Shown here one piece after another: positions 162 to 31,945 of a stretch of DNA of 64,000 nt. A program made the position numbers and the translations under genes. Origin of the DNA: a virus. Its lineage: Duplodnaviria; Caudoviricetes. The first letter of the stretch is position 1. Each line of letters begins with the position of its first letter. The notes under the pieces were generated by a model. It did not search any database and was not told where the DNA came from. It was given only the letters and a program-made list of their open reading frames with translations. Location: positions 129,746 through 193,745 of the IMG/VR virus record IMGVR_UViG_3300033067_002132; one strand, written 5' to 3'.

Positions 162-2306
162 TTAAATTAACTTATTAATTTGTTCTATAACCATTTCGGG
201 CGTAATTTCTTTTGTACATTCAAAATGTTTATCTGTTCCTTTATAAACCGGACACCATTCCCAATCACCACGATCAAATTCAAATCTATTATCATTAAAA
301 CATCCATGACATACATTTTTATTAATTACTCTATATGGAGTTTGAAATTCACTAAAAGTATGAGAAAAACCACTAATTAAAATAGTAGATTTATTTAAAG
401 CCCAAGATAACCACGATAAACCCGAACCTAATCCTATATTAAAATCCGCATCTTTAATATATTTAGCAATTTCTATTAATGATTCATTATGTATGTCTAT
501 AACACCATTAAATCCAGAAAGACTGTTTTCTTTAATAGCTAAAACTTTATATCCTTTATTATTTAAATAATTTATAATATTTTGCCATCCTTTATGTCTA
601 TTCCAATATTTTGCTTGTGCAGTAGATTCAGTAAAAAGACAAACATATTTATCTTTAATTTTCCTTTCATTATTAGGAATAAATATATTTGGTTTTAATT
701 CAATAAAATCTAATCCAAGAATATCTGAAGCAATTTTTTGTAATGGAATTAATCTAGGATCATTTTTATGTATATTTTTATCTAAATAATTAAAAATACC
801 TAAACGATAAGACGCATATAAATTATCAACAGTTGATCCAGGCTCAACAAATTCCATATGACTATAAGTATTCTTAAAGAAATAATTATGAAAAGTAGAA
901 ACAACACAATGACAACTATGTTTTTTTCTAAATTCTTCTACATATGGAAACCAAGCCAATGTGTCGCCTAATGCACGACTTTCAAAAGCAAAGAAAACTC
1001 TTTTATTAAAACAAGAAAAAACATGTTCAAACAAAAAATTTTCTGATTCTGCTTTTATTTTATAGTTTGTAAAATCTTGTTTAGAAGATTTGGCCCAACT
1101 ATTATTTCCTATTGTGGTTTGATATAAAATAGAATTAGAATCTTGATCAATAAAAGAAATTTTATTTAATCCCTCGTCTTTATTTTTTATTTCGATGAAA
1201 GCACCATCTATAAAATTAATAGATATTATTGGTTTAGAAGGTAATGGAGAGTTTTTTATTTCTTCTTTTTTTCTATAATCTGTATTATATATAAAATCTA
1301 ATTTTCGTTCAAAAATATGTTGGCTATTTAAATAAAATTTTGAATTTCGAAATTTATTATTAATATATTGATTATATAAATCTAAAGTTTTTTGTCCTGT
1401 TAATTTCCAATCATATTTCAAAGCGATTTCTCTTGCTTTAGATTGATACGATTGATAATTACTTAAAATGATTTTAATTCCTTCGATAATTTCATTTTCA
1501 TCTCTAGATGTTTTAATTATATCTTTTTCTCCTCCCCAATAACAACCAACAAAAGGAAGTCCGGTTGACATTGATTCGATCATTGTCAAATTAGGATGAC
1601 CGGTTTCTATATTTGAAGGATGAAGAAAAATATGATGATCTTGATATAATTTAATTAATTCTGATTCATTTTTGTCATATACAATATTTAATTTTGGATA
1701 ATCTATAATGTTAACATCAAAAAAATCTTTATTACTATTGGTCGGTCCTGCGATTGTAATAAAATAATTTAATCTTTTTGCTACATTGATAGCAGGAAGA
1801 AAACCCTTTCGATCTTCTGTTTTATTTCTAAGAGTTCCATTATTAGCAACACATAATAATTTAACATTATCGATAGGTGTTTTTCTTTCATAAAAAGAAT
1901 ATAGATTCGTATCTACTCCTAAAGGAAGAAAAACAGTATTTTCTCTAAAATCAAAATAAGATAATAAAAATTCTCCAGGAAAAGTAGTAATAATAGATTT
2001 ATCTATTGCCTCGCAATTATTTAAATAAACCTGAGATTCTTTTCCATATATACAAGCATGATGATCACACATCGAAAAGAAATATGGAATTCCTAAAGAA
2101 GCAAGTTCTCTAGCTTGATTTTCTATATAAACATGAACTATATCAAATTCTTTATTTAAAAGTCTTTGATCGTGTAAATCAACAATGAAAAATTCATGAC
2201 CTAAAGATTCGAAAAATAATTTATAATTCCAAATCATTTTTTCGATTGCTCCCCAATTTTTAGGTGGGATTTCAATATTTCCTGTTAAAATATGCGCTAT
2301 TTTCAT
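162..2306 (-). CDS. GT4-type glycosyltransferase fused to a TibC/Aah-like (autotransporter heptosyltransferase family) protein O-glycosyltransferase
   Basis: N-half GT-B motifs (IPPKNWGAIEK, FLHPSNIETGHPNLTMIESMSTGLP); C-half ESRALGDTLAWFPYVEEF, STAQAKYWN, GLGSGLSWLSWAL, ISGFS and Cys cluster CHGC...WCP...FECTKEIT. Confidence 0.85.
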   Translation of the reverse strand: MKIAHILTGNIEIPPKNWGAIEKMIWNYKLFFESLGHEFFIVDLHDQRLLNKEFDIVHVYIENQARELASLGIPYFFSMCDHHACIYGKESQVYLNNCEAIDKSIITTFPGEFLLSYFDFRENTVFLPLGVDTNLYSFYERKTPIDNVKLLCVANNGTLRNKTEDRKGFLPAINVAKRLNYFITIAGPTNSNKDFFDVNIIDYPKLNIVYDKNESELIKLYQDHHIFLHPSNIETGHPNLTMIESMSTGLPFVGCYWGGEKDIIKTSRDENEIIEGIKIILSNYQSYQSKAREIALKYDWKLTGQKTLDLYNQYINNKFRNSKFYLNSQHIFERKLDFIYNTDYRKKEEIKNSPLPSKPIISINFIDGAFIEIKNKDEGLNKISFIDQDSNSILYQTTIGNNSWAKSSKQDFTNYKIKAESENFLFEHVFSCFNKRVFFAFESRALGDTLAWFPYVEEFRKKHSCHCVVSTFHNYFFKNTYSHMEFVEPGSTVDNLYASYRLGIFNYLDKNIHKNDPRLIPLQKIASDILGLDFIELKPNIFIPNNERKIKDKYVCLFTESTAQAKYWNRHKGWQNIINYLNNKGYKVLAIKENSLSGFNGVIDIHNESLIEIAKYIKDADFNIGLGSGLSWLSWALNKSTILISGFSHTFSEFQTPYRVINKNVCHGCFNDNRFEFDRGDWEWCPVYKGTDKHFECTKEITPEMVIEQINKLI

Positions 2307-5259: not shown

Positions 5260-5277
5260 CGTAGATATTATAATCTA

Positions 5278-8200
5278 TTATTTCTTTTCTTCTAATATTT
5301 TAATTCTTCGTTTTAATTTTTCTATTTCTGCGCTTAATTCTTTTACAGAATTAACTAATAAATAAGTAATAGGAGAATCATAAACATGATATATATCTGT
5401 TCTTTCCGTATCATTAGGATCAAGAAATACATTTTTCTTTACTATACAATAAGGAATATTTTTAAGCTGATCTTGAGCTATAATACCTATACCTTTTAAT
5501 CCTTCTTGTGTTTCTCCACGACCATTATATTCAAATTCAAAAGGATTAATTTTATTTACTATATCTAATCCTTGTTTAAAAGATTTAATATTTCTTTTTG
5601 TTCTTGCATCTGAAACAGATCCAGAAGAACCATTTGCTCCTGATGATCCTGATGTTCCTGATGTTCCAGAAGAACCCGATGTTCCGGAAGATCCTCTAGT
5701 TCCTGAAGTTCCCGAAGAACCTCTAGTTCCTGAAGTTCCCGAAGAACCTCTAGTTCCTGAAGTTCCAGAGGTTCCTGCGGTTCCTGAAGTACCAGAAGAT
5801 CCCGAAGGTCCACTTGATCCTGTAGCTCCATTTAAACCTGATGTACCGCTAGATCCACCCCCTCCTGCTCCAGAAGTTCCAGAAGACCCCGCAACGCCTG
5901 TAACACCTGATGTTCCTGCGGTTCCCGAAGAACCAACAGCACCATTAGCACCTGATGTTCCTGCGGTTCCCGAAGAACCAACAGCACCATTAGCACCTGA
6001 TGTTCCTGCGGTTCCCGAAGAACCTGATGCTCCATTTGCTCCAGAACTTCCTGAAGTACCACGAGTACCTGAAGTACCAGAAGATCCTGTTCCTCCATCT
6101 GCTCCGTTTGCTCCTGAAGAACCAGAAGAACCTGAAGAACCAGATGCTCCTGAAGTTTTTTGTTTAATAATTCCATTTTCTATAATTAGAAAATTAGAAC
6201 TAGTTCCTGTATTAACTTTTTTAAGTTCTACTTCATTTGCTATAGAAAAAATATTATCATGTGTCGTAAAAGGTCTATCTGAAATTTCAAAACCACCTAC
6301 TACCGTTATTCCTGAATAACTAGAATAATTTGTAATAATTAATGGTTTAATATATCTAGTAGAAGGTGCAAAAGAAGTATATGCGAAACCAGTATCTTGA
6401 CCCGAAATTATTCCATAATACCATTTTCCTGTTACAGTAGGGGTTGTATCAGCCGCAATAAAATATTTTAATCCACCAGAATTTGTATTAATTAAATTAA
6501 AACCACTATCAAAACATAAAGCACCAGCATAAAACCGTCCAGAAGATGTATTTGCCCCACTTAAATGAGTTCTAGCTGCCCAAATTTTTCCATAATATAA
6601 AGTATCTGGATTAACCGCGATATATTGAGGAATAGCTAACCAATTTCCCGCAAAAGTTCCCTGATGTTTAATTTGATGTAATACTCCTCCTGGTACAGAA
6701 TAACCTGTTAATTCAGGTAAAAGTTTAATTGTAGTATTACTCATGGGGACTGAAGAAATTCCTGATGTCCACATTCCTGTTGTATATCCCCATGTTTCGC
6801 TAGAAATAGGAATAAGATTGGCACCAGCTAATCCACCCATTTGTAATTTAATAAATCCTGTTACTCTTAAACTATCATTAATTAATACATCAGGTTCATT
6901 TAAAGAATTAATTCCTGAAGTAAATAAATTTTGTATATATGCTTCTTGAAATCTATAATTATCTGCTCCTAAATTATAGGATTTAGTTACAGCAGGTCCA
7001 ATATCTCCATTAACTTGTAATAAAAAGGTATTTGTTTCAGGAGTAACACCGATACCGAAAGCATTATTTTTAAAAGAATATATAAATTGATCACCAGCAA
7101 ATTTTGCTAAAATATTATTTATTCCTGATCCTGTAGGTCCATCTGTTGTAACGGTAATAATTGTATTTTGACCATGAGCACCATCTAAAGTTCTTCCACC
7201 GGCATTAATTTTAAAAATATCATCACCACTATTTAAACCACTAGGAAGATTAATACTTCCGTTCCAACGATCATAATGAATAATAAAACGATCATTAATA
7301 GCTCTATTTAATATAGAATGACCCCCACCTATTACAGTATTTGTATAAGTTCTATATCCCGCTCCATTAAAATTAATTTGATTTATACTTGTAGCATCAA
7401 GATCTCCACTTGTAGGAGTTTGAATATAATCTCCTAAAATATGTACTGTTGTTTGAGGATTGGTTGTACCAATACCAATATTAGAACTAATTTCATGAAT
7501 AGGAGTTGTTGTATTTCCTATAGCAGTAGCAGAGGTAAATTTAACTATTCTATTTGTTGTTCCTGATACAGAAATACTACTACCAGATGTTCCCGAACTT
7601 CCTGAAGTTCCCGAACTACCTGATGTTCCTCTCGTTCCTGATGTCCCACTTGATCCAGAAGAACCATCCGCACCATTTATTCCACTTGTGCCTGAAGATC
7701 CTGTTAAACCAGAACTGCCAGACGTTCCTCTAGTACCCGAAGTTCCTGATGATCCTGTTACCCCTGAAGAACCAGAACTTCCTGAAGACCCATCGTTTCC
7801 TGATATTCCACTTGTTCCAGAAGAACCTGTAACCCCCGAACTACCTGAACTACCTCTTGTACCAGATGTTCCAGATGATCCGGTTAATCCAGAGGAACCA
7901 GAACTTCCTGAAGATCCAATTGCTCCGTCAAGGCCACTAGTTCCACTCGATCCTGTAACACCAGAACTTCCACTTGTTCCTCTAGTTCCTGAGGTTCCAC
8001 TACTTCCTGAAGAACCACTAGAACCCGAACTACCTGAAGATCCGCTTGTTCCTGAAGACCCATTAATTCCACTAGAACCGGATGAACCACTAGATCCAGA
8101 ACTACCTGATGATCCTGAACTTCCTGAATCTCCTGCTCTTGCAAATGTTAACACAATAGAATCATCTGTATTAAAAAGACCAGATCCAGTTATGTATGAA

Positions 8201-11200
8201 ACGTTAGCAGCTATATATCCAGGACTAAAAGTTGTATTAGAAGTAATATTAAAAATAGAAAAAATAGAAGAATTATATTCGCCAAAAATTCTTAATGTTC
8301 CTTTTATATTATTCGTACTATAATCTAATCCGCTTAACCAATTAAAAATATTCGCACCATCAGCATTAATATGATCGATATATAATTTATTGATACTTGC
8401 GTATGTCGTATTATTAAATTTTAAATATCCATTTCCTGGATCTACATTAGATGTTCCTGTATTAAATAAATATAATTGAGAGTCACCACCAAAAAGACCA
8501 TTAGAACCAGATGTTCCTGAACTTCCTGTAAGTCCTGAAGATCCTGATGTTCCTCTTGTTCCACTAGTTCCAGAAGATCCAGAAGAACCACTAGATCCCG
8601 AACTTCCACTAGAACCATCATTTCCTGTTAACCCTGAAGTTCCACTAGATCCTGATGTCCCGCGTGTGCCTGATGTACCTGAAGTACCACTTGATCCCGT
8701 TAACCCGCTTGAACCAGAAGAACCCGATGAACCATTAGCTCCATCAATACCTGATGTTCCTGATGATCCAGATGTACCTCGTGTTCCTGATGTTCCTGAT
8801 GATCCAGTTAAACCGCTTGAACCAGAAGATCCAGAAGATCCGCTACTTCCTGAAGAACCATCATTACCATTAATTCCACTTGTTCCACTAGATCCAGACG
8901 TTCCTCTAGTTCCCGATGTTCCACTTGACCCTGTTAAACCACTAGATCCTGAAGAACCAGAACTACCCGCGACACCATCTATACCTGATGTTCCACTTGA
9001 ACCTGACGTTCCTCTAGTACCAGAAGTTCCTGAAGAACCAGTAACTCCTGATGATCCGGAACTACCAGAAGATCCAGTTAATCCACTTGTACCCGAACTT
9101 CCTACTACTCCATCTATACCAGAAGTACCTGATGTACCTCTGGTTCCTGATGTACCAGAAGATCCATTAATACCTGATGAACCCGAACTTCCTGAAGAAC
9201 CAGTAGCACCCGAAGTTCCCGATGATCCTGATATACCTGAACTACCTGAAGAACCGCTTGAACCAGATGTACCCGCTGTTCCAGAAGAACCACTAGTACC
9301 TCTAGTACCTGAAGTCCCTGAAGAACCAGAAGAACCAGAATTTCCCGCTCTACTAAAAGTTAAAATAATATTATCATTTAAAGCAAATAATCCTGTACCT
9401 AATACATATTCTACATTTATAGCGGCATAACCAGAATTATAAATATTATTTCCTGTAATATCAAATTGATGAAAAATAGAACTATTATATTCTTGAAAAA
9501 TTCTTAATGTTCCTTTTATATTATTATTACTTAAATCTAATCCGCTAATCCAGGGTAATATATTTATATTATTTTTATTTAAATTATCAATATAAATTTG
9601 ATTAGCTCCAGAATATCCTGAAAAATTAAATCCTAAATATCCCGTTCCAGGATCTATATTTAATATTCCTGTATTAAATAAAAATGGTATAGAATCGCCA
9701 CCAAAAAGACCATTAGAGCCTGAGCTTCCCGATGTGCCTCTTGTACCAGAAGTACCAGAACTACCTGTAATTCCTGAAGATCCTGAGCTTCCTGAAGATC
9801 CAGAATTACCGTCTATACCTGATGATCCTGATGTTCCTCTTGTGCCTGATGTTCCTGAACTTCCGGTTATACCAGATGAACCAGAACTACCAGCAGATCC
9901 AGCGGAACCAGGATTACCATCTAATCCTGAAGTTCCTGACGTTCCCGAAGATCCATTTATACCAGAACTACCTGAAGTTCCTCTAGTACCAGACGTACCA
10001 GAACTTCCTGAAGATCCACTATTTCCTGAAGTTCCTGAAGAACCTGATAAACCAGAAGATCCAGGTGTTCCAGGCGCCCCGTCTATTCCTGATGTACCAC
10101 TAGAACCTGTTAATCCACTTGATCCTGAAGTTCCGCGAGTACCAGAAGTACCGGATGATCCATTAATTCCGGAAGATCCAGAACTACCACTAGAACCAGA
10201 AGTCCCGCTGCTTCCTGTTAAACCGCTTGATCCTGATGAACCATCTATACCTGAAATTCCTGAAGTACCACTAGATCCTGAGGTTCCTCTTGTTCCAGAT
10301 GTCCCCGAACTACCACTACTACCAGAACTTCCTGAAGAACCAGAACTGCCAGATGTTCCGCTAGATCCTGAATTACCATCGATACCCGAAGATCCACTAG
10401 AACCTGAAGTACCTCTAGTACCCGATGTACCTGAACTTCCTGTTAATCCTGAAGATCCCGAACTACCAGAAATTCCTGAAGATCCAGGTGTTCCCGGTAT
10501 ACCATCTAAACCAGAAGTTCCAGAACTACCACTAGATCCAGAAAGACCAGAACTTCCGCTAGTTCCTCTAGTACCAGATGTTCCAGAACTTCCTGTTATT
10601 CCACTACTACCTGAAGAACCAGACGTTCCACTAGTTCCTGAACTTCCATCTATACCAGACGTTCCAGATGTTCCTCTTGTACCAGAAGTACCTGATGTAC
10701 CAGAAGAACCCGCGGGACCACTTGAACCGGTTGCACCATCTAACCCAGACGAACCAGATGAACCACTACTTCCTGAAGATCCTGAACTACCACTTGTACC
10801 AGAAGTTCCTCTAGTTCCAGAAGTTCCAGAGGAACCACTTGTTCCAGAACTTCCATTATTACCAAACATAGTAAATGAAATTACTAAATTATCATTTAAA
10901 TTAAAAAGACCACTTCCTATAATATAATTAACAAAAATTTGAGCATATCCAGAATTATAAATATTATTACCGGTTATATTAAAAGATGTAAAATTAGAAG
11001 AATTATATTCTTTAAAAATTCTTAAATTTCCTTTAGGATTACTATTAGAAATATCAAAACCAGAAATCCAAGAAACAATATTTAATAAATCTTTATTATA
11101 GTAATCTATACATATTTGATTAACACCAGAATAACCTGAATAACCCGAATAGATTCCAGAATGATTAAAAGAAAAATAACCACTACCAGGATCAACATTT

Positions 11201-12732
11201 AAAATACCTGTATTAAAAATATATAATTGAGAATTTCCACCAAATAAACCACTACTTCCTGATGTTCCACGGGTCCCAGAGGTTCCAGAAGAACCAGAAG
11301 CACCCGTATTTCCGTCTATTCCTGAAGTTCCCGAGGTTCCTCTTGTACCAGACGTTCCTGAAGATCCTGTTTGTCCTGAACTTCCACTTGAACCAGAAGA
11401 TCCTGTTTGTCCAGAGCTACCCGAAGTTCCACTTGAACCGTTATTTCCATCTATACCCGAAGTACCAGAAGTTCCTCTTGTACCAGAGGTTCCTGAACTA
11501 CCAGTTATTCCACTACTTCCCGATGATCCAGAAGTACCTGATGTTCCAGAACTTCCTGAAAATCCAGAGGTGCCTGAAGATCCAGATATTCCACTGGAAC
11601 CTGAAGAACCACTAGAACCGTTTATTCCTGATGTACCTGATGATCCTGTTATACCTGAAGATCCTGCGCTTCCACTACTTCCTGAAGATCCTGAATTACC
11701 AGATGTTCCACTACTTCCCGTAAGTCCAGAGGAACCACTACTTCCTGTAATTCCTGATGAACCACTACTACCAGAAGATCCATTAATACCAGATGAACCA
11801 GAAGTTCCACTAGATCCTGTTTGTCCAGAACTACCTGAAGACCCACTACTTCCTGTTACTCCGCTTGATCCAGAAGTTCCACTTGAACCATTTAAACCAG
11901 ATGAACCACTACTACCAGAAATTCCACTAGAACCACTAGTTCCTGAACTTCCTGTTAATCCAGAAGATCCTGCGCTACCACTAGATCCGCTTGATCCAGA
12001 GGTTCCAGATGAACCTGAACTTCCTGATGTTCCCGAAGTACCAGAAGATCCAGATGTACCTCGTGTTCCAGACGTTCCTGAAGATCCATTAGCTCCAGAA
12101 CTACCTGAAGAACCATTATTTCCTGATGTTCCACTACTTCCTGTTAATCCAGATGTTCCAGAACTTCCTATATTACCTGCACGAGCAAAAGAAATAACAA
12201 TTCTATCATTTAAATCAAAATTATTATTAGAAATTAGTCCACTAACACCTAATTTTGTATAAAGTCCAGAAGGAATGTTATTTCCTGTTATTAAATAATC
12301 TGCAAAATAAGAACTATCGTATTCTTTAAATATTCTAATAGTTCCTTTTATATCATTATTGCTATCGTCTAAACTATTTATCCAACCACTAATATTAACA
12401 AAATTAGCATTATTATGATTAATAAAAATTTTATTTACCGCGGAATATGTACTACTATTAAAAGAAAGATATCCACTTCCAGGATTTGTATCAACAATAC
12501 TTGTATTAAATTTATATAAATGAGAATCTCCACCAAATAATCCTGAACCAGAAGCATTAAATGATCCACCGCCACCCCCCGCACCTGTTATTAATACCCA
12601 AACACCACTTTCTTTAATATATTGTTTATAAGTGGTAAATTCATGATAAATTGCACCATCTAATACTCCTGATGGTTTTGTATCAGATGGTAAACCTACA
12701 AATCTATCTCCAGCATATTTTCTAAGTGCCAT
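5278..12732 (-). CDS. Giant Gly-X-Y (G-S-S/G-T-S) fibre protein with four repeated globular domains and a C-terminal peptidase S74-type intramolecular chaperone
   Basis: Five Gly-X-Y blocks; four copies of GLFGG(D/N)S...F(A/S/T)(R/M)(A/F)G domain; NIGIGTTNP fibre motif; SDARTKRNIK...GIIAQD...LLVNSVKELSAEIEKLK chaperone; next to gpJ. Confidence 0.85.
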   Translation of the reverse strand: MALRKYAGDRFVGLPSDTKPSGVLDGAIYHEFTTYKQYIKESGVWVLITGAGGGGGSFNASGSGLFGGDSHLYKFNTSIVDTNPGSGYLSFNSSTYSAVNKIFINHNNANFVNISGWINSLDDSNNDIKGTIRIFKEYDSSYFADYLITGNNIPSGLYTKLGVSGLISNNNFDLNDRIVISFARAGNIGSSGTSGLTGSSGTSGNNGSSGSSGANGSSGTSGTRGTSGSSGTSGTSGSSGSSGTSGSSGSSGSAGSSGLTGSSGTSGSSGISGSSGSSGLNGSSGTSGSSGVTGSSGSSGSSGQTGSSGTSGSSGINGSSGSSGSSGITGSSGSSGLTGSSGTSGNSGSSGSSGSAGSSGITGSSGTSGINGSSGSSGSSGISGSSGTSGFSGSSGTSGTSGSSGSSGITGSSGTSGTRGTSGTSGIDGNNGSSGTSGSSGQTGSSGSSGSSGQTGSSGTSGTRGTSGTSGIDGNTGASGSSGTSGTRGTSGSSGLFGGNSQLYIFNTGILNVDPGSGYFSFNHSGIYSGYSGYSGVNQICIDYYNKDLLNIVSWISGFDISNSNPKGNLRIFKEYNSSNFTSFNITGNNIYNSGYAQIFVNYIIGSGLFNLNDNLVISFTMFGNNGSSGTSGSSGTSGTRGTSGTSGSSGSSGSSGSSGSSGLDGATGSSGPAGSSGTSGTSGTRGTSGTSGIDGSSGTSGTSGSSGSSGITGSSGTSGTRGTSGSSGLSGSSGSSGTSGLDGIPGTPGSSGISGSSGSSGLTGSSGTSGTRGTSGSSGSSGIDGNSGSSGTSGSSGSSGSSGSSGSSGTSGTRGTSGSSGTSGISGIDGSSGSSGLTGSSGTSGSSGSSGSSGINGSSGTSGTRGTSGSSGLTGSSGTSGIDGAPGTPGSSGLSGSSGTSGNSGSSGSSGTSGTRGTSGSSGINGSSGTSGTSGLDGNPGSAGSAGSSGSSGITGSSGTSGTRGTSGSSGIDGNSGSSGSSGSSGITGSSGTSGTRGTSGSSGSNGLFGGDSIPFLFNTGILNIDPGTGYLGFNFSGYSGANQIYIDNLNKNNINILPWISGLDLSNNNIKGTLRIFQEYNSSIFHQFDITGNNIYNSGYAAINVEYVLGTGLFALNDNIILTFSRAGNSGSSGSSGTSGTRGTSGSSGTAGTSGSSGSSGSSGISGSSGTSGATGSSGSSGSSGINGSSGTSGTRGTSGTSGIDGVVGSSGTSGLTGSSGSSGSSGVTGSSGTSGTRGTSGSSGTSGIDGVAGSSGSSGSSGLTGSSGTSGTRGTSGSSGTSGINGNDGSSGSSGSSGSSGSSGLTGSSGTSGTRGTSGSSGTSGIDGANGSSGSSGSSGLTGSSGTSGTSGTRGTSGSSGTSGLTGNDGSSGSSGSSGSSGSSGTSGTRGTSGSSGLTGSSGTSGSNGLFGGDSQLYLFNTGTSNVDPGNGYLKFNNTTYASINKLYIDHINADGANIFNWLSGLDYSTNNIKGTLRIFGEYNSSIFSIFNITSNTTFSPGYIAANVSYITGSGLFNTDDSIVLTFARAGDSGSSGSSGSSGSSGSSGSSGINGSSGTSGSSGSSGSSGSSGSSGTSGTRGTSGSSGVTGSSGTSGLDGAIGSSGSSGSSGLTGSSGTSGTRGSSGSSGVTGSSGTSGISGNDGSSGSSGSSGVTGSSGTSGTRGTSGSSGLTGSSGTSGINGADGSSGSSGTSGTRGTSGSSGTSGSSGTSGSSISVSGTTNRIVKFTSATAIGNTTTPIHEISSNIGIGTTNPQTTVHILGDYIQTPTSGDLDATSINQINFNGAGYRTYTNTVIGGGHSILNRAINDRFIIHYDRWNGSINLPSGLNSGDDIFKINAGGRTLDGAHGQNTIITVTTDGPTGSGINNILAKFAGDQFIYSFKNNAFGIGVTPETNTFLLQVNGDIGPAVTKSYNLGADNYRFQEAYIQNLFTSGINSLNEPDVLINDSLRVTGFIKLQMGGLAGANLIPISSETWGYTTGMWTSGISSVPMSNTTIKLLPELTGYSVPGGVLHQIKHQGTFAGNWLAIPQYIAVNPDTLYYGKIWAARTHLSGANTSSGRFYAGALCFDSGFNLINTNSGGLKYFIAADTTPTVTGKWYYGIISGQDTGFAYTSFAPSTRYIKPLIITNYSSYSGITVVGGFEISDRPFTTHDNIFSIANEVELKKVNTGTSSNFLIIENGIIKQKTSGASGSSGSSGSSGANGADGGTGSSGTSGTRGTSGSSGANGASGSSGTAGTSGANGAVGSSGTAGTSGANGAVGSSGTAGTSGVTGVAGSSGTSGAGGGGSSGTSGLNGATGSSGPSGSSGTSGTAGTSGTSGTRGSSGTSGTRGSSGTSGTRGSSGTSGSSGTSGTSGSSGANGSSGSVSDARTKRNIKSFKQGLDIVNKINPFEFEYNGRGETQEGLKGIGIIAQDQLKNIPYCIVKKNVFLDPNDTERTDIYHVYDSPITYLLVNSVKELSAEIEKLKRRIKILEEKK
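5693..5766. repeat. Exact 27-bp tandem repeat x2.7 within the fibre gene
   Basis: cctctagttcctgaagttcccgaagaa at 5693, 5720 and partial at 5747. Confidence 0.9.
5904..6024. repeat. Exact 45-bp tandem repeat x2.7 within the fibre gene
   Basis: cacctgatgttcctgcggttcccgaagaaccaacagcaccattag at 5904, 5949 and partial at 5994. Confidence 0.9.
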
Positions 12733-12763
12733 TTCCTTTTACCTTTATAGAATAATTACACTT
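12733..12763 (-). promoter_or_regulatory. Putative late promoter GTGTAA plus AAGGTAAAAGGAA leader/RBS of the fibre gene
   Basis: Minus strand AAGTGTAATTATTCTATAAAGGTAAAAGGAAATG; near-identical layout upstream of gene M. Confidence 0.65.
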
Positions 12764-15700
12764 ATGTTTGCGAACTTATTATAACAGATTCAGAATCATC
12801 ACCGAAACTATTAGTTAAAGTTCTTCTTCCATCAATTTGTGCTGTTGATAATTTCCAAATATTATTATTATCGTTAAAATTAGTAAAAATTAATTGTTGA
12901 CCTATTTTCATAGTATTTGTGACTCCACTAAAGTTAATACTTGTTATATTACTTAATGGAAATCCAGTTCTTAACATACTATTATAATTATTAATTATCT
13001 CCATGTCAAAAGAATCTATTACAGAAAAACAAATATATCCAGTTGGAGAAAAATATCGATCTTCATAAGGAATAGGAGTTTGAAAAGATTTAGTATAAGA
13101 ATTATAATTAGAATAACCTGTATAAATATTAAATTGACTAGGAATAGGATTATTTCCTGTTATATTTTCTCCTGAAAAAAGACCTGTACTAAAATAAATA
13201 TAACCACCAATAATATCTTTTGGCATAGTTCCTGAAACATATGTAATATTAATATTTAAACCACAATCAATAAAATGTCTAGTTATATATCCACTTACTA
13301 TTTTATTAATACCTGTAGATAATGCTAATCCAGTAATTCTTTCATTATTTATATATAATAAATCATATCCATAAGGATTTGTCCAAGGTTCATGATATCC
13401 AGTAGATAAATCTAAATAATTTCCAGCAGAAGTTCTTCCAAAATTATCAACCGCTTCAACTACAACATCATATTTTCTAAATGGCCCACCACTTGCTAAT
13501 ACATTATCTTTAAAATCAAAACTTTTAGATATTTCATTAGAATAAATAGGTATTCCTGTATATTCAAAATAAATAGTTGAAGAAGGAGTATTTGTATAAG
13601 AAGGTTCTCTTATAGATAATCTAAAATTAAAATTTGTTGGCAATTGTTCTCCTGTTGAACCCATTTGCCATGTAAAAACTGGACTTAATTCATAAAATCT
13701 ATCAATATTTGTTTTAGATGCTCCAACTATACCATCATATAACCCTGTTGGATAAAATTGACCAGTATTAATGTTTAAACTACTAATAACAACATCTAAA
13801 ATAGGAAAAATTTGAGGAATATTAAAAAATCCTGTTATACTATCATTTGAATATGTATTATTTATATAATTATATCCCCATAAACTATAAATAAAATCTC
13901 CTGTATTTTCAAAAGAATAATCATAATTAGAAATCTCAGGTGATAAAAATCCAACCAAATATTTATTATCAGGTACAAAATTATGATCTATTTTATCACC
14001 CGAAGGACTAATAAAAATAGCAGTATGAGTGTTATTTACAGAATTATTATCTTTTGTCCAATTTAAAGATACCTTTTTAGAACTAATACTTACATTATCT
14101 ACTGTTGTATATCCATATGTGGGTTTAGAAGGAATTGTTTGTGGTAATAATGAATTTCTATCAAAATTAATTCCTGATTCTATTTCTATATATTTTTGTG
14201 CATTATATTGTAAACCAATAACGTTCAATTCATTTTCTTTTTCTTCTATATTAATAATTCTATATTGATCTTGATATGGATCTAGAAATTTACTTGTTGC
14301 ATCATAAGTTCTATCTCCCGAATTCATATGAATAGACCAAACAGTATTTTTTGTTATTTCATAATTTTCTATATCAAATGGATTAGGATTAAATTCAAGT
14401 TGTAAATAAGAGTCTTTATTTATACAATTAGTTGGTGTAGCATTAAAAATTCCACTTTGAATTAATCCTCTTCTTATATTAGAAATTTCACTACTATTCA
14501 TATCAGAAATAGCAGTCGCATTATAATTATATGTAGGAGTAATTAAATTTAATACATAATTAACACCCGTATTAATAATTGGTATAGAATCTAATTTAAT
14601 TATTGCTTTATTAGAAATAGATTCTAATTCAAAATCTTTAATTCTTCCCGCGTATCGATATAATTTTTTATTATTATCTATTACATTTATTACGTCTCCG
14701 GGTTTTAAATAACTTGCTTCTAATCCCGCATTAAAACTAATCGTTTCTGTTTCTAAATTTTCTGTTAATAAAACCGCTCTACCAAATCTTAATGCTTGTC
14801 CACGACTAGTACATCCAATAGCATCAATTTCTATTTCCCTTATTCCATATTTTCTAATCCCATCTACATCTTCTACATATTCAATCGCAGGTTTATAAAA
14901 ATTTCTTTTATCATTATATCTTACTATGGCTACGGTATGTCTTACTCTTCTACTACTACTAGCATAACCAAAATTACCATCTTTAATATTTGAATTTGTA
15001 AATGTTGTAATGGGATCTTTTGGAGAATCTTGTGTCGCAGAAATTACTCCATTTCCAAAATAAACTAAACCTCTAAAAATCGAAGCCATATTATTAATAA
15101 CTTTATAAGCTTCTTCTTTATTATTTAAAATAATATTACAAGCAAATCTTGGTTCCCATCCACCATATCCATCAGGAACTAAAACATCACAATATTTACT
15201 TATTTCATATAACGACCATTTATCTACATATGTACTATCAATATATTTTCCTAATCCGTAATTTTCATTAGTAATAATATCATAAAAGCACCAAGCCGGA
15301 TTATCTGTCCAATATTTGTTTTCTTTAAAAGAACCATCCCAAGGAGTAGATTCATTATATCTTTTTAAAATAGGATCATAATTAGATGGAATTTTTACTT
15401 TTATTAATCTTGTATCAAAAAATCTATTAGGAATTTGACTAAAATATTCCGAATTAAAACGAGAACGAACTATAGCAGAATTTGGATTAGTATGTATATC
15501 TTCATAAATTTCTGTAATACTATCTACATAAATAGTATTTCTTTCTAATGAAGTTAAAGAATCAGGACTTCTTCTTGCTATTTTAATTTCCCATCCTAGA
15601 AAATCTCTATTATTTACTGTAGGATCTTTGCCATAAAAAGAAATTTTATCTGTTTTAATAAATCCATATTGAATTTTACCAGTAAATTGAACCTTTTTAG

Positions 15701-17975
15701 CTAATGTAAAATTTTTTGGATTATTTAATGCATTAGAATAAATAGGGCGAAAATAAATATAATAAGTCATTAACGCATCAATTAAATCACCGTTTTCCGC
15801 CGATACTGTTTTTTGTAAAGTTTGTATTCTTATATTAATAAAAGCCGCTGTACATTCAGGATTTAATATTCTATATGTTTTTACATGATCAGCTTCTAAA
15901 ATAGGTAATCCTAATTCATTAAATTGTGTCGCTCGTAATCTTTCTCCTATAGTTCTACTAATTGTTGCTTTAGGATTTATATAATTTAAAATCGCACCAT
16001 TTGGTAATCCAGGCGTAAAAGAAACATCTATACTTTGATAATTATATTTATTATCTGAACTTACTAATGGAACTTCATTCCAATAAATAGATCTAAACCA
16101 ATTTATATTTGTTTTTGGAGCATTTTGATAAGGAATAAAGGTCGCTTTTGTATATCCAATTTCATAAGGATTTCCTTCAAAAATATATTCTCCATTTACT
16201 AATCCTTCTATTTCGCCTTCTGATAATAAATCTAATACTTCGATTGAAGTAGTAGAAAGAGCACGTTTAACTTTTTTACCGAATTGATCTTCTACATCAA
16301 CAACCCCTTCTGGAACTTCATCAAAAGTTTTTTCTGAATCTGTACTTGCAGTAGACGTTGAACCCTCTTGTATGGGTTTACTTATTGCAGCATATTTATA
16401 TTCATATTCAAAACTTTCTGTACTTTTATAAGTTCTATCATTTATTAATCGAACTAAATAATAATTATAAGAATTTTTTCCATAAGTTGTAAAAGCCCCA
16501 CCAACAAAAATTTTTGAATCTCCATCTCTCATAGTTGGTTGATTGGTTGTACCATTTGTTATTAAAAAATCAAAAATTTTAACATAATTAACAGGTCCAT
16601 TAAAACCAATCCCATCTTGAACTTTTCCAAAAGGATCTCCATATCCATTGCTTGAAAAAGATAAATCTAATGTTCCATCAGAAATTGAAACGCGACAAAA
16701 ATTATTAACGTTTGGAACTTTTTGTCCAGCATTTGTAAATTTTCCACCTAATAAAATATAATCCCATGTTGATTGATTATATTCTTCTATACAATTAACA
16801 GATGTCTCCGTATCATCATCATAAATAGGTCTATAATTTTCTACCACCTGAAATTTTCCTAAATTTATTCCTGTTTCTTGTCTAATAAATTTTACTACTT
16901 TAGTAATAGTTGTTGCACCTAAACTAGTAAATTTACCACCAACCATTAAAATTTTATTATTAAAATCATTATGATATCTTAATAATTTAATACAATTAAC
17001 TCTATCATTAAGATCAATATCTAATCCAGTAGTTAATTCCATTATTTTTAATGTTCCGGTAGCATTTTTTATACGAGTAATATAATTATTATTAGGAGAT
17101 CCTATAACAGTAAAATCCCCACCAATATAAATATCAATATTATCATCGTCTTTTACAGAAACGGTTGGATTTGTCGTCCAATCTATTTCTATTGTTCTGA
17201 CCGCGCCATTTAAAAAAGAAGGGTTAAATGAAGTAATTTCTTTTCCATCGGGTGTTATTTTTTTTAAAAAACCAGAAAAACTACCACCTATTAAAATAGA
17301 TCCATCATCTTTATCAAAAAATTTTCTATTTATTTGATCGTATCCTTTCATTACTAAAGCACCTGAATCTAAAGAAACTCCTCCATTACTCGGAGATCTA
17401 AAACTCTGTATAATAAAACCATCATAATCGACACAAAGAATATTTTCATATGAATCAGTAATATAATTATCATCATAATCAATAACTCCTAATTGATTTT
17501 GATCGGGTGGTAAATTTCCTAAAATATCATATTTAAAATCACCAGAAATATAAACTCTTTTAGATTTTTCATGAATTAAAATAGATGTAATACTATTACT
17601 TCTAGAAACAACAACAGGTTTACCATCTTTTGTAGTATTTCTAGGAATTGTTATGGTAAAATTATCTTTTCCATAAAGAGCATTTCCATAAGGATCAACA
17701 ATAATAACAGTAAAAATTCCTATATTACTTAATTCATTTTTTTTCTGTACTAATAAATGTAATAAAGTATTTGGTAATGTTTTAATAGCACAATATAAAT
17801 TTTCCATATATGGGGAAAATTTAGCAGTACCTTGTTCTAAAGTTGATCTTCTTAAATCACAAACAAAAGGTTCATACATTTGTGAAACATGTAATATATT
17901 AAATGGAAAATTTAAACTAGGAAAAACATCCCATTTAATAGTTGGTGCTTGAGATTTTGTATTATAAACGGTCAT
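12762..17975 (-). CDS. Tail tip / central fibre protein J (lambda gpJ-like) with N-terminal beta-propeller-like extension
   Basis: VLDLLSEGEIEG, KVKIPSNYDP, WDGSFK..WTDNPAWCFYD, YCDVLVPDGYGGWEPRF, GCTSRGQALRFG; position after M-L-K-I. Confidence 0.9.
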   Translation of the reverse strand: MTVYNTKSQAPTIKWDVFPSLNFPFNILHVSQMYEPFVCDLRRSTLEQGTAKFSPYMENLYCAIKTLPNTLLHLLVQKKNELSNIGIFTVIIVDPYGNALYGKDNFTITIPRNTTKDGKPVVVSRSNSITSILIHEKSKRVYISGDFKYDILGNLPPDQNQLGVIDYDDNYITDSYENILCVDYDGFIIQSFRSPSNGGVSLDSGALVMKGYDQINRKFFDKDDGSILIGGSFSGFLKKITPDGKEITSFNPSFLNGAVRTIEIDWTTNPTVSVKDDDNIDIYIGGDFTVIGSPNNNYITRIKNATGTLKIMELTTGLDIDLNDRVNCIKLLRYHNDFNNKILMVGGKFTSLGATTITKVVKFIRQETGINLGKFQVVENYRPIYDDDTETSVNCIEEYNQSTWDYILLGGKFTNAGQKVPNVNNFCRVSISDGTLDLSFSSNGYGDPFGKVQDGIGFNGPVNYVKIFDFLITNGTTNQPTMRDGDSKIFVGGAFTTYGKNSYNYYLVRLINDRTYKSTESFEYEYKYAAISKPIQEGSTSTASTDSEKTFDEVPEGVVDVEDQFGKKVKRALSTTSIEVLDLLSEGEIEGLVNGEYIFEGNPYEIGYTKATFIPYQNAPKTNINWFRSIYWNEVPLVSSDNKYNYQSIDVSFTPGLPNGAILNYINPKATISRTIGERLRATQFNELGLPILEADHVKTYRILNPECTAAFINIRIQTLQKTVSAENGDLIDALMTYYIYFRPIYSNALNNPKNFTLAKKVQFTGKIQYGFIKTDKISFYGKDPTVNNRDFLGWEIKIARRSPDSLTSLERNTIYVDSITEIYEDIHTNPNSAIVRSRFNSEYFSQIPNRFFDTRLIKVKIPSNYDPILKRYNESTPWDGSFKENKYWTDNPAWCFYDIITNENYGLGKYIDSTYVDKWSLYEISKYCDVLVPDGYGGWEPRFACNIILNNKEEAYKVINNMASIFRGLVYFGNGVISATQDSPKDPITTFTNSNIKDGNFGYASSSRRVRHTVAIVRYNDKRNFYKPAIEYVEDVDGIRKYGIREIEIDAIGCTSRGQALRFGRAVLLTENLETETISFNAGLEASYLKPGDVINVIDNNKKLYRYAGRIKDFELESISNKAIIKLDSIPIINTGVNYVLNLITPTYNYNATAISDMNSSEISNIRRGLIQSGIFNATPTNCINKDSYLQLEFNPNPFDIENYEITKNTVWSIHMNSGDRTYDATSKFLDPYQDQYRIINIEEKENELNVIGLQYNAQKYIEIESGINFDRNSLLPQTIPSKPTYGYTTVDNVSISSKKVSLNWTKDNNSVNNTHTAIFISPSGDKIDHNFVPDNKYLVGFLSPEISNYDYSFENTGDFIYSLWGYNYINNTYSNDSITGFFNIPQIFPILDVVISSLNINTGQFYPTGLYDGIVGASKTNIDRFYELSPVFTWQMGSTGEQLPTNFNFRLSIREPSYTNTPSSTIYFEYTGIPIYSNEISKSFDFKDNVLASGGPFRKYDVVVEAVDNFGRTSAGNYLDLSTGYHEPWTNPYGYDLLYINNERITGLALSTGINKIVSGYITRHFIDCGLNINITYVSGTMPKDIIGGYIYFSTGLFSGENITGNNPIPSQFNIYTGYSNYNSYTKSFQTPIPYEDRYFSPTGYICFSVIDSFDMEIINNYNSMLRTGFPLSNITSINFSGVTNTMKIGQQLIFTNFNDNNNIWKLSTAQIDGRRTLTNSFGDDSESVIISSQT

Positions 17976-17976
17976 A

Positions 17977-18741
17977 TTAAATTAATGTTGCTGTATTAGC
18001 GGTAGAATTTTCACTATTTGATTTAACAATATATGTATAAGAAAGAATAGTAATCGATCCTGATCCGAATTCTACATCTAAATCTCCTCCTGTATATCTA
18101 TAAAGTAAACTATTTTCAGAAGATTGAGTATAATAAATATCATATGTAGAAGAAATTGTTTGACTTCCGACAATTAAACGACCATATCCAACCGGAACAG
18201 GCCCACCTTCTTCTGTTGTATTATATGGACCATTAAATAAATAAGAAGCTTTAGATTTTTGTATATCTTTATAATTATCAAATTTTGGTGGACTTGTTAA
18301 AAGAGAAATCACACCTCCAGCTAACAAAGCTATACCTGCTACGATTAAATATGGTTGACCAAATAATCCTATAACAATTAAAATAACTCCTAAAATAATA
18401 CCTAAAATTCCTAAAAAATTACTTCCTGATCCTTCTAATATAGGTATAATATCAATAGTTTTTAATGAATCTTCTTTAAATGTAATCATTAATTCAGAAT
18501 TTTTTATAGTATCAATTTCTTCTATATTTACTGGTTTTTCTGAAATAAAATCTCTTCCATTGATTAAAACTCTATATTTAATTCCTTGTTTATCTTTTTC
18601 TAAAAGATATTTATAAAGTTTTCTTTTACTTAAAACTTCTATAGCACGCATAGCTTCCCCAACAGAATTAACACATAAACTCCATTGTTTACCTATATTT
18701 TCTCCTAAATCTCCATGTAAAGTTATATTTGTTTTATGCAT
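17977..18741 (-). CDS. Tail assembly protein I (lambda gpI-like)
   Basis: ITLHGDLG, IDIIPILEGSG, hydrophobic segment, SYLFNGPYNTTEEGGPVPVGYGRLIVGS. Confidence 0.9.
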   Translation of the reverse strand: MHKTNITLHGDLGENIGKQWSLCVNSVGEAMRAIEVLSKRKLYKYLLEKDKQGIKYRVLINGRDFISEKPVNIEEIDTIKNSELMITFKEDSLKTIDIIPILEGSGSNFLGILGIILGVILIVIGLFGQPYLIVAGIALLAGGVISLLTSPPKFDNYKDIQKSKASYLFNGPYNTTEEGGPVPVGYGRLIVGSQTISSTYDIYYTQSSENSLLYRYTGGDLDVEFGSGSITILSYTYIVKSNSENSTANTATLI

Positions 18742-28861: not shown

Positions 28862-28862
28862 A

Positions 28863-31943: not shown

Positions 31944-31945
31944 AA

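What the first reader, a model, noticed from the sequence alone, without database searches (positions are those of the whole stretch)
5278..12732. Proline-poor, serine-saturated collagen-like giant fibre
Seen: five Gly-X-Y blocks (approx 12175-11253, 10860-9712, 9343-8500, 8130-7582, 6150-5620), roughly 440 triplets by coordinate arithmetic. They are dominated by GSS/GTS with a recurring higher-order unit containing GLT/GIT, GTR and GID/GIN. The S74-type chaperone implies a trimer. Established: Ser-rich, Pro-poor triplets are poor triple-helix formers, and Thr glycosylation stabilises some invertebrate collagens. Inference: either a glycan-stabilised triple helix up to ~380 nm long (0.29 nm per residue), or a polyglycine-II bundle.
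Basis: partly seen in the sequence, partly recalled or inferred. Interest (0 to 1): 0.8.

Follow-up and report, generated by a model that had tools for sequence, protein, structure and literature searches.

The report
Serine-rich collagen-like phage tail fibre
A 194-kb uncultured phage encodes a 2484-residue tail fibre made of about 450 nearly proline-free Gly-Ser/Thr-Ser collagen-type triplets strung with small bead domains, and the gene sits next to enzymes related to the bacterial TibC protein-heptosylating enzyme, so the fibre is probably sugar-coated, though no experiment has tested this.

Summary
ORF 5278-12732 (-) encodes 2484 aa. It has 452 Gly-X-Y triplets in five blocks (one split by a GG), and 66% of them are GSS or GTS. 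Pro fills 7 of 904 X/Y positions, and there is no Lys or Glu. Four homologous bead domains of about 116 aa interrupt the shaft. A 475-aa globular domain and a C-terminal S74 self-cleaving chaperone follow. The gene lies just after a gpJ-like tail-tip gene, so I read it as a trimeric side tail fibre.

The glycan idea gains real comparative support. Two genes downstream is a GT4 fused to a true TibC/Aah-type protein O-heptosyltransferase. It scores 319.6 bits on TIGR04414 against a cut-off of 200, and the catalytic Asp and four iron-finger Cys are kept. I fetched 80 viral loci with such an enzyme, which fall into 47 clusters. Of these, 23 carry a collagen-like ORF within 10 kb, and 19 of those are Ser/Thr-saturated. 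None of 22 Gln-type collagen-fibre loci has the enzyme.

A polyglycine-II bundle is disfavoured. Glycosylation, triple-helix folding and virion location all remain untested.

Earlier notes of this scan describe the same fibre/TibC module in at least 30 other genomes. I found no paper that describes it.

The parts
5278..12732 (-). Whole fibre gene, 2484 aa
   Evidence: ORF list and translation. Pfam Collagen plus Peptidase_S74.
12541..12732 (-). N-terminal ~64 aa, the likely virion-attachment part, ending in a Gly run
   Evidence: 47% identical over 49 aa to the N-terminus of the bead-bearing fibre in the related locus L009. Its function is inferred.
12178..12525 (-). Bead domain 1 (aa 70-185)
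   Evidence: Profile match E 2e-58. Alignments A1 and A2.
11233..12177 (-). Gly-X-Y block 1, 105 triplets
10864..11232 (-). Bead domain 2 (aa 501-623)
9694..10863 (-). Gly-X-Y block 2, 130 triplets
   Evidence: The super-repeat is mapped.
9346..9693 (-). Bead domain 3 (aa 1014-1129)
   Evidence: AF2 model of this copy: pLDDT 92.9, all-beta.
8482..9345 (-). Gly-X-Y block 3, 96 triplets
8134..8481 (-). Bead domain 4 (aa 1418-1533)
7576..8133 (-). Gly-X-Y block 4, 62 triplets
6151..7575 (-). Globular region of 475 aa (aa 1720-2194), candidate receptor-binding part
   Evidence: No Pfam or PDB sequence match. Residues 231-448 of this region are 43% identical to part of a 1265-aa phage-type protein, P0160. 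The fold attempt failed with pLDDT 34.
5614..6150 (-). Gly-X-Y block 5, 33 + 26 triplets split by a GG, richer in Ala. It holds an exact 45-nt x 2.7 repeat at 5904-6024.
5281..5613 (-). S74 intramolecular chaperone / self-cleavage domain (aa 2374-2484). Predicted cut before Ser2374, dyad partner Lys2379.
   Evidence: Pfam PF13884. 28 tail-fibre PHROGs. Dyad spacing as in endoNF S911/K916 (PMC8326128).
2569..5259 (-). Downstream gene 1: GT4 glycosyltransferase + FkbM-type methyltransferase + an unassigned C-terminal part (896 aa)
   Evidence: Pfam and NCBIfam. Homologues hold the same position in related cassettes.
162..2306 (-). Downstream gene 2: GT4-like N-half fused to a TibC/Aah-type protein O-heptosyltransferase (aa 362-713, about window 165-1223)
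   Evidence: PDB 4RB4/4RAP TibC at E 5e-61. TIGR04414 at 319.6 bits against a cut-off of 200.
12762..17975 (-). Upstream gene: gpJ-like tail-tip protein (1737 aa), which places the fibre in the tail module
   Evidence: Pfam Phage-tail_3 and FNIII-A_GpJ. Matches to 'host specificity protein J' in phages. The tail assembly genes K, L, M and I-like lie upstream.

Best explanation
The gene encodes a very long homotrimeric side tail fibre of a lambda-like siphovirus with a 194-kb genome. Five collagen-type Gly-X-Y shaft segments (about 90, 112, 82, 53 and 51 nm if fully triple-helical) are joined like beads on a string by four copies of a small all-beta domain and one larger globular domain. The C-terminal S74 domain trimerises the three chains, sets their register and nucleates folding from the C-terminal end, then cuts itself off before Ser2374. 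The shaft lacks the usual stabilisers of collagen (Pro/Hyp and Lys-Asp/Glu pairs). Instead it presents hundreds of Ser/Thr hydroxyls. These are most likely O-glycosylated in the infected cell by the two multi-enzyme proteins encoded directly downstream: a TibC/Aah-type heptosyltransferase fused to a GT4, and a GT4-FkbM methyltransferase fusion. The result would be a sugar-clad fibre. Shown here: the sequence anatomy, the family memberships, the gene order and the cross-phage association. Inferred: trimer and triple-helix formation, glycan attachment, the donor sugar, and any role of the glycan in stability or in host or immune interactions.
For: Anatomy of the fibre:
- There are 452 strict Gly-X-Y triplets, and Pfam Collagen gives E 6e-179.
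- The S74 domain is present with the Ser2374/Lys2379 dyad.
- The gene lies directly after a gpJ-like tail-tip gene and the tail assembly genes.
- The bead domain matches 8466 cluster representatives in a 1.84-billion-protein library and often occurs in several copies per protein. In relatives it is flanked by ordinary GPQ/GAT/GPT collagen repeats. So the Ser-rich blocks sit where canonical collagen-like shafts sit in relatives.

The downstream enzyme:
- It passes the curated TIGR04414 cut-off.
- It aligns to TibC over residues 28-386 and keeps Asp110, Thr226, Lys230, Trp305 and Cys339/342/358/370.

Association across phages:
- The gene order fibre -> GT4/FkbM -> GT4-TibC recurs in phages whose TibC-like domains are only 41-52% identical to this one.
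- After de-duplication, 23 of 34 informative enzyme clusters have a collagen-like ORF within 10 kb, and 19 of those have Ser+Thr in at least 60% of X/Y positions.
- 0 of 22 Gln-type collagen-fibre loci have the enzyme.
- The only complete genome checked in the GTS-collagen set has a TibC-like gene elsewhere on the record.

Precedent: published work notes that Thr-rich triplets are over-represented in prokaryotic and viral collagens, and that (Gly-Pro-Thr)10 folds only when galactosylated (PMC11923368).
Against: - No experiment or structure shows a triple helix, a glycan or virion incorporation.
- Known BAHT enzymes act on Ser in strand-loop-strand motifs of beta-helical autotransporters, not on collagen-like rods. 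Arg286 of TibC is not aligned, and the beta-hairpin thumb region is gapped.
- The phage carries no ADP-heptose pathway gene, and the host is unknown, so the donor sugar is unknown.
- Only 6 of 28 GTS-type collagen loci show a cassette gene within 10 kb, although most of those records are fragments.
- Where the cassette has no collagen-like ORF next to it, it often follows another giant ORF with 21-22% Ser+Thr, and in Microcystis phage Mel-JY01 a Ser-rich non-collagen structural protein. So its target may be fibres in general and not the Gly-X-Y shaft as such.
- GYS/GFS-type Ser-containing shafts in relatives have no such enzymes nearby.
Confidence: 0.6

Rival explanations
1. The fibre is a collagen-like trimer that needs no modification. 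The downstream glycosyltransferases act on something else, such as other virion proteins, host envelope glycans or host adhesins.
For: Proline-poor collagen-like shafts are common in the bead family: 15 of 47 proteins have Pro in at most 3% of X/Y positions. GYS/GFS shafts have no glycosyltransferase nearby. Many GTS-collagen loci show no cassette within 10 kb. Phage glycosyltransferases often modify host O-antigen or DNA (general knowledge).
Against: The fixed gene order fibre-GT-GT across diverged phages and the near-exclusive pairing with Ser/Thr-saturated shafts (against the control) are hard to explain if the fibre is not the target. TIGR04414 enzymes are protein, not lipid or DNA, glycosyltransferases.
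Confidence: 0.2
2. The Gly-X-Y blocks do not form a triple helix. They act as flexible, heavily glycosylated mucin-like tethers between folded beads.
For: The shaft lacks Pro, Hyp and salt-bridge triplets. From memory of host-guest peptide data (Persikov et al. 2000), Ser in Y and Thr in X rank low in helix propensity. Dense O-glycosylation is known to stiffen unfolded chains (general knowledge).
Against: A disordered tether has no need for Gly at exactly every third residue over 130 consecutive triplets. Yet that constraint is kept while the codons and the X/Y residues have drifted. A C-terminal trimerising chaperone directly abuts the last block. Homologous fibres carry canonical collagen repeats at the same places.
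Confidence: 0.12
3. The blocks fold back on themselves into polyglycine-II bundles, as in snow-flea antifreeze protein or the phage S16 gp38 adhesin.
For: Those folds also use Gly-rich tripeptide repeats, and phage adhesins with such folds exist (from memory, not tested here).
Against: Gly fills only 7 of 904 X/Y positions. There is no regular short period or turn motif. The only super-period is 11-18 triplets and it varies. The blocks are far longer than known PGII elements.
Confidence: 0.04
4. The protein is not a tail fibre but a capsid or other surface decoration, or a product released into the cell or the medium.
For: Virion location was not tested. Collagen-like proteins also occur as spore or cell-surface filaments (BclA, Scl).
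Against: The gene sits directly after gpJ in the tail module. Its S74 domain matches 28 PHROG families, 24 of the 25 listed being tail fibre, spike, baseplate or other virion families.
Confidence: 0.04

Closest known systems
Phage collagen-like tail fibres and prophage collagen-like proteins (for example EPclA of E. coli O157 prophages, PMC3368898)
   Same: Gly-X-Y shaft in a phage fibre protein, trimeric, with flanking non-collagen folding domains and a position in the tail module.
   Different: Characterised examples are short (tens of triplets) and rely on Pro in X and about 20% charged residues (PMC11923368). This one has 452 triplets, 0.8% Pro, no Lys or Glu, 77% Ser+Thr, and four intercalated bead domains.
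BclA of the Bacillus anthracis exosporium and Riftia cuticle collagen (glycosylated-Thr collagens)
   Same: The collagen-like helix has a hydroxy amino acid in place of Hyp, and O-glycans are thought to stabilise the helix (cited in PMC11923368).
   Different: In those proteins the glycosylated residue is Thr in the Y position of GPT, with Pro still abundant. Here Y is mostly Ser, X is Ser or Thr, and Pro is absent. The candidate enzyme belongs to a different family (BAHT). No glycan has been shown here.
TibC/TibA and Aah/AIDA-I: bacterial autotransporter heptosyltransferases (TIGR04414; PDB 4RAP, 4RB4; PMC4358343)
   Same: The neighbouring enzyme passes the family's curated cut-off and keeps the catalytic Asp, three of the four sugar-binding residues and the iron-finger cysteines. 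Like TibC, it is encoded beside a long, repetitive, Ser-rich rod-shaped substrate candidate.
   Different: The substrate candidate is a collagen-like phage fibre, not a beta-helical autotransporter. The enzyme is fused to a GT4 domain and partnered with a GT4-FkbM fusion. Its thumb region is shortened.
Endosialidase, T5 L-shaped tail fibre and GA-1 gp12 type C-terminal intramolecular chaperone (Peptidase_S74)
   Same: C-terminal domain with the Ser-Lys dyad, which trimerises and then self-cleaves (PMC8326128).
   Different: In studied cases it folds a triple beta-helix or beta-spiral. Here it directly follows a Gly-X-Y block, so it would act like a procollagen C-propeptide. That analogy is an inference.
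Glycosylated mycobacteriophage virions (Freeman et al. 2023, from memory; mentioned in PMC11256854)
   Same: Phage-encoded glycosyltransferases modify the phage's own structural proteins.
   Different: Those enzymes modify capsid and tail-tube C-termini in actinophages and belong to other enzyme families. No collagen-like acceptor is involved.

Membership tests
Collagen triple-helix repeat proteins (PF01391), prokaryotic/viral collagen-like class | Uninterrupted Gly-X-Y repeats | tested here: met
   452 triplets, with runs of up to 130.
Collagen triple-helix repeat proteins (PF01391), prokaryotic/viral collagen-like class | Profile score above the curated cut-off | tested here: met
   580.4 bits against a cut-off of 27.2.
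Collagen triple-helix repeat proteins (PF01391), prokaryotic/viral collagen-like class | Adjacent trimerisation/registration domain | tested here: met
   The S74 domain begins directly after the last triplet.
Collagen triple-helix repeat proteins (PF01391), prokaryotic/viral collagen-like class | Known stabilisers: Pro/Hyp or Lys-Gly-Asp/Glu salt-bridge triplets. These are typical of characterised members, not strictly defining. | tested here: not met
   Pro fills 7 of 904 X/Y positions. There is no Lys or Glu. Arg is always followed by Gly-Thr/Ser.
Collagen triple-helix repeat proteins (PF01391), prokaryotic/viral collagen-like class | Triple-helical conformation | not testable with these tools
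This needs CD, EM or a multimer model.
Peptidase_S74 intramolecular chaperone autocleavage domain | Profile score above the cut-off, at the C-terminus | tested here: met
   33.8 bits against 22, aa 2374-2421 of 2484. 28 PHROG families matched; of the 25 listed, 22 are tail families and two more are virion structural or DNA-ejection families.
Peptidase_S74 intramolecular chaperone autocleavage domain | Ser-Lys catalytic dyad, with Lys five residues after the cleavage-site Ser | tested here: met
   The sequence reads S-D-A-R-T-K at 2374-2379. The spacing is as in endoNF S911/K916.
Peptidase_S74 intramolecular chaperone autocleavage domain | Autoproteolytic release after trimer folding | not testable with these tools
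   Needs protein expression.
BAHT protein O-heptosyltransferases (TIGR04414), for the neighbouring gene 162-2306 | Equivalog model score above the curated cut-off | tested here: met
   319.6 bits against 200. TibC PDB chains at E 5e-61.
BAHT protein O-heptosyltransferases (TIGR04414), for the neighbouring gene 162-2306 | Catalytic base Asp110 and sugar-binding Thr226, Lys230, Trp305, Arg286 | tested here: inconclusive
   Asp110, Thr226, Lys230 and Trp305 align to identical residues. Arg286 aligns to Ile beside a gapped stretch.
BAHT protein O-heptosyltransferases (TIGR04414), for the neighbouring gene 162-2306 | Four iron-finger cysteines (339, 342, 358, 370) | tested here: met
   All four align to Cys.
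BAHT protein O-heptosyltransferases (TIGR04414), for the neighbouring gene 162-2306 | Autotransporter substrate encoded alongside | tested here: not met
   No autotransporter was seen among the genes around the cassette. The neighbour is the collagen-like fibre.
Polyglycine-II bundle folds (snow-flea antifreeze protein, phage S16 gp38 type) | Short PGII segments joined by regular turns, with extra Gly facing the core | tested here: not met
   Gly fills only 7 of 904 X/Y positions. There is no short regular period. The super-period varies from 11 to 18 triplets. The features of the family are recalled from memory.
Lambda-type side tail fibre (by position) | Encoded just downstream of the J tail-tip gene in the tail module | tested here: met
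   gpJ-like gene at 12762-17975, preceded by I, K, L and M-like genes. There is no sequence similarity to lambda Stf.

The most novel reading that the evidence does not exclude
Large uncultured phages carry a conserved three-gene system that builds a proline-free collagen. Its triple helix would be stabilised or protected by dense O-heptose-based, methyl-capped glycans laid down by a ring-shaped TibC-type enzyme acting along the rod. That would be a third route to collagen stability besides hydroxyproline and salt bridges, and the first non-autotransporter substrate class for the BAHT family.
Probability: 0.35. Interest if true: 0.85.

Novelty: new variant of a known kind. Interest (0 to 1): 0.65.

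Why it matters
How long collagen-like helices fold and stay folded without hydroxyproline or chaperones is an open question, stated as such in PMC11923368. This fibre removes both known stabilisers and puts a candidate substitute next door: a protein O-glycosylation cassette. That makes the question directly testable with a few recombinant constructs.

It would also extend the TibC/Aah enzyme family from bacterial adhesins to phage virions. It would add a widespread case of self-glycosylating phage particles, with consequences for host recognition, protease resistance and phage-derived biomaterials. In addition, the bead domain is a large family that Pfam did not match and for which no solved structure was found.

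Tried and rejected
- The fold library 'atlas' was not installed. The first protein-atlas call failed, and the second gave only weak leads of 0.87 or less.
- The bead model has no convincing solved relative: Foldseek best E 0.04 and VIA-align wide best Z 5.9. I do not name a fold.
- The central 475-aa region gave no Pfam or PDB sequence hits. It has two homologues only, and its AF2 model is unusable at pLDDT 34.
- A viral-contig scan with the GT4-FkbM protein found nothing because its peptide patterns were too specific. Its homologues were instead found by phmmer inside the TibC loci.
- tblastn of a collagen block against GenBank phages found nothing, most likely because of the low-complexity filter.
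- The control query L002:5560-6377 was out of frame by one base (my slip). It still retrieved the homologous Gln-type collagen genes, which I then re-read in the right frame.
- NCBIfam hits of the fibre to the Scl2/Lcl/Scl1 adhesin models reflect repeat composition, not orthology, and I rejected them.
- AT-bias as the sole cause of the Ser/Thr richness is rejected. Ser/Thr-type shafts occur in loci of up to 47% GC, and Gln-type shafts occur at 38-39% GC. Neighbouring proteins have 2-4.5% Pro against 0.8% in the shaft.
- No cultured close relative or host could be named.
Full report
**What is there**

The window is the last 64 kb of a 193,745-bp IMG/VR virus record that CheckV rates as complete. 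The record has 29% G+C, and most of the window about 25%. The finding is one minus-strand ORF, 5278-12732, of 2484 aa.

A script found six runs with Gly at every third residue and no break:
- 105 triplets at aa 186-500
- 130 triplets at aa 624-1013
- 96 triplets at aa 1130-1417
- 62 triplets at aa 1534-1719
- 33 + 26 triplets at aa 2195-2373, split by one GG

GSS (191) and GTS (108) make up 66% of them. Ser+Thr fill 77% of X/Y positions and Pro fills 7 of 904. The only charged residues are 28 Arg and 22 Asp. There is no Lys, Glu or His.

The claimed higher-order unit exists. GTR recurs every 11-18 triplets. It is typically followed by GTS, GSS or GTS, then G(I/L)(D/N), then a GSS run, then G(L/I/V)T. 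The period is not fixed.

At the DNA level the repeats are mostly 60-85% alike. Ser uses TCT, TCA and AGT, and Gly uses GGA and GGT. So the repeat is old and held by selection on the protein. It is not a recent slippage product or an artefact. One exact 45-nt x 2.7 repeat lies at 5904-6024.

Pfam gives Collagen at E 6e-179 and Peptidase_S74 at 33.8 bits against a cut-off of 22. This is the only collagen-like ORF in the genome.

**Other parts of the protein**

Four homologous domains of about 116 aa (49-64% identical to each other) separate the blocks. Each starts right after G-L-F-G-G-D/N-S and ends in F-A/S-R-A, followed at once by Gly-X-Y. An AF2 model built on 13 family sequences is confident (pLDDT 92.9) and all-beta. 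It has no convincing solved relative: Foldseek best E 0.04 and VIA-align best Z 5.9.

A profile of the domain finds 8466 cluster representatives at E <= 1e-3 in a library of 1.84 billion proteins. There are up to eight copies per protein, and Pfam gave no match to the domain. In relatives the beads are flanked by Gly-X-Y repeats of many compositions: GPQ/GAQ/GAT, GPT/GVT, GIQ/GVQ, GYS/GFS, or only short linkers. So 'beads on a collagen string' is a widespread phage fibre design.

Proline-poor shafts are common in this family: 15 of 47 proteins have Pro in at most 3% of X/Y positions. Within that sample the window's protein is the extreme for size (452 triplets, next 273) and for Ser+Thr content (0.77, next 0.51).

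A 475-aa globular region (aa 1720-2194) has no Pfam or PDB match. Residues 231-448 of this region are 43% identical to part of a 1265-aa fibre-like protein. Its fold prediction failed. I take it as the candidate receptor-binding part, by position only.

The last 111 aa match 28 PHROG families, nearly all of them tail-fibre, tail-spike or baseplate families. They begin S-D-A-R-T-K. This has the Ser-Lys spacing of the endoNF S911/K916 dyad, which cuts before the Ser once the trimer has formed (PMC8326128).

**Context**

The gene upstream (12762-17975) is a gpJ-like tail-tip protein. It is preceded by tail assembly genes like lambda I, K, L and M. The fibre therefore sits where lambda keeps its side tail fibre.

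Directly downstream, after an 18-bp gap on the same strand, lies an 896-aa GT4 + FkbM-methyltransferase fusion. After that comes a 714-aa protein.

I tested this:
- phmmer against PDB sequences returns only TibC (4RB4, 4RAP) at E 5e-61, over TibC residues 25-386.
- NCBI's equivalog model TIGR04414 scores 319.6 bits against a cut-off of 200.
- In the alignment, read against the residue list of the TibC structure paper (PMC4358343), the catalytic base Asp110, Thr226, Lys230, Trp305 and all four iron-finger cysteines are kept.
- Arg286 is not aligned, and the beta-hairpin thumb region is gapped.

TibC and Aah are protein O-heptosyltransferases. They load many Ser residues of repetitive rod-shaped adhesins in the cytoplasm. 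The phage has no SIS_2 or cytidylyltransferase genes for ADP-heptose synthesis, so any donor sugar would come from the host.

**Is the pairing more than a coincidence of neighbours?**

Forward test. A scan of IMG/VR with the TibC-like domain gave 142 matches, of which 80 loci were kept (41-52% identity).
- 35 of these loci hold a collagen-like ORF of at least 10 triplets within 10 kb. In 33 of the 35 the top triplets are GTS or GSS.
- Some of these ORFs are larger than the one here: 881, 733 and 599 triplets.
- The order fibre -> GT4/FkbM protein -> GT4-TibC is the same in most of them. Several of those fibres also end in S74.
- After clustering the enzymes at 90% identity there are 47 clusters, of which 34 are informative. 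Of these, 23 have a collagen-like ORF, and 19 of those have Ser+Thr in at least 60% of X/Y positions.
- Where no collagen-like ORF is present, the cassette often follows another giant ORF with 21-22% Ser+Thr.
- In the one cultured phage that has the enzyme, Microcystis phage Mel-JY01, the cassette follows a Ser-rich 'structural protein'.

Reverse test. Of 28 loci found with a GTS-type collagen block, 6 show a cassette gene within 10 kb. Whole-record searches add 3 of 9 records. The only complete genome among them has the enzyme about 40 kb away from the fibre.

Control. 22 loci with Gln-type collagen fibres, many of them bead-bearing, contain no TibC-like gene.

Caveats. The sets are small and contain related phages, and the fragments are incomplete. 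So I give counts and not a probability. The direction of the result is clear all the same.

**Mechanism I consider most likely**

1. Three chains are brought into register by the C-terminal S74 domain.
2. The Gly-X-Y blocks zip up from the C-terminal end, and the beads fold as in-line domains.
3. The chaperone cuts itself off before Ser2374.

The shaft lacks the stabilisers that published surveys find in collagens from all domains of life and viruses, namely Pro/Hyp and Lys-Gly-Asp/Glu (PMC11923368). That same paper notes that Thr-rich triplets are over-represented in prokaryotic and viral collagens. It also notes that (Gly-Pro-Thr)10 folds only when galactosylated.

Here the hydroxyl-rich shaft is paired with a protein O-glycosylation cassette: a heptosyltransferase, two GT4 domains and a methyltransferase. 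I therefore think the fibre is sugar-coated.

I cannot say whether the sugar stabilises the helix, protects it from proteases, or serves in adhesion or masking. Fully extended, the five segments would measure about 90, 112, 82, 53 and 51 nm (0.286 nm per residue, textbook value). The 388-nm sum is a contour length of a jointed fibre, not one rigid rod.

**Rivals**

- An unmodified helix, with the enzymes acting elsewhere, remains possible (0.2).
- A non-helical glycosylated tether (0.12) fails to explain the strict Gly periodicity and the abutting trimerising chaperone.
- A polyglycine-II bundle (0.04) is unlikely given almost no Gly in X/Y and no regular turn period.
- Non-virion roles (0.04) conflict with the tail-module position.

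**Comparison with what is known**

Known precedents:
- Collagen-like phage fibres (PMC3368898)
- S74 chaperones (PMC8326128)
- Glycosylated-Thr collagens such as BclA and Riftia cuticle collagen (cited in PMC11923368)
- BAHT enzymes (PMC4358343)
- Self-glycosylating mycobacteriophages (from memory; mentioned in PMC11256854)

What I could not find in the searchable literature is any link between BAHT-type enzymes and phage collagen-like fibres, or any description of GSS/GTS-saturated phage collagens. In GenBank phages the enzyme occurs in four records. The one annotated record labels it only 'methyltransferase FkbM', and the other three have no annotation.

Earlier AI notes of this scan report the same module in at least 30 other genomes. 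They agree with my result but are not independent evidence. I repeated the key tests myself.

I rate the fibre as a new variant of a known kind. It is interesting mainly because it makes the question of proline-free collagen stability directly testable.

Noticed in passing
window 8134-8481, 9346-9693, 10864-11232, 12178-12525 (-): The bead is a large family that Pfam did not match: 8466 cluster representatives, up to 8 copies per protein. It is a confident all-beta model with no solved relative found, and it always opens with G-[LF]-F-G-G-[DN]-S.
   Followed up: yes
L003 (contig of P0005), about 16100-19700: In a ~190-kb phage with a tubulin gene, a 1750-aa bead/collagen fibre is followed some 6.5 kb downstream by a radical-SAM/SPASM enzyme and two sulfotransferases. 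This may be another fibre-modification set.
   Followed up: no
L002:8646-10388 (+): A 580-aa extremely His-rich protein (long runs of H, N, G, P) is encoded about 1.2 kb downstream of a GPQ-type bead/collagen fibre. Its function is unknown.
   Followed up: no
window 25749-26930 and 26933-28882 (-): A second glycosyltransferase pair lies 13 kb from the fibre: a GT9-like 393-aa protein and a 649-aa protein with a weak, below-cut-off Glycos_transf_1 match plus DUF4214. The GT9-like protein has a 1e-100 homologue in the related locus L009.
   Followed up: partly
window 22904-25006 (+): A 700-aa protein with IPT/TIG domains is encoded on the opposite strand, between the tail genes and the replication genes.
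   Followed up: no
L088 (Microcystis phage Mel-JY01, PP395634.1) 3065-8430: In this cultured cyanophage the TibC-like domain is the C-terminal part of a 1226-aa protein annotated only as 'methyltransferase FkbM'. It follows a Ser-rich 509-aa 'structural protein'.
   Followed up: partly
window 5904-6024 (-): An exact 45-nt repeat, 2.7 copies at 100% identity, lies in the last collagen block. This contrasts with the 60-85% identity elsewhere and looks like a recent local duplication.
   Followed up: no
L097:3-9713, L089:8132-16129, L015:11813-21070: Other viral contigs carry even larger Ser/Thr-saturated collagen-like ORFs (938, 797 and 881 triplets; two of the three ORFs are cut by a contig or locus end). 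So this fibre class is widespread and this window is not its extreme.
   Followed up: partly
window 29367-31988 (-): The phage replicative polymerase is DnaE-like (Pol III alpha type). Its nearest cultured relatives are only about 30% identical (Streptomyces phages). No cultured close relative or host could be named.
   Followed up: partly
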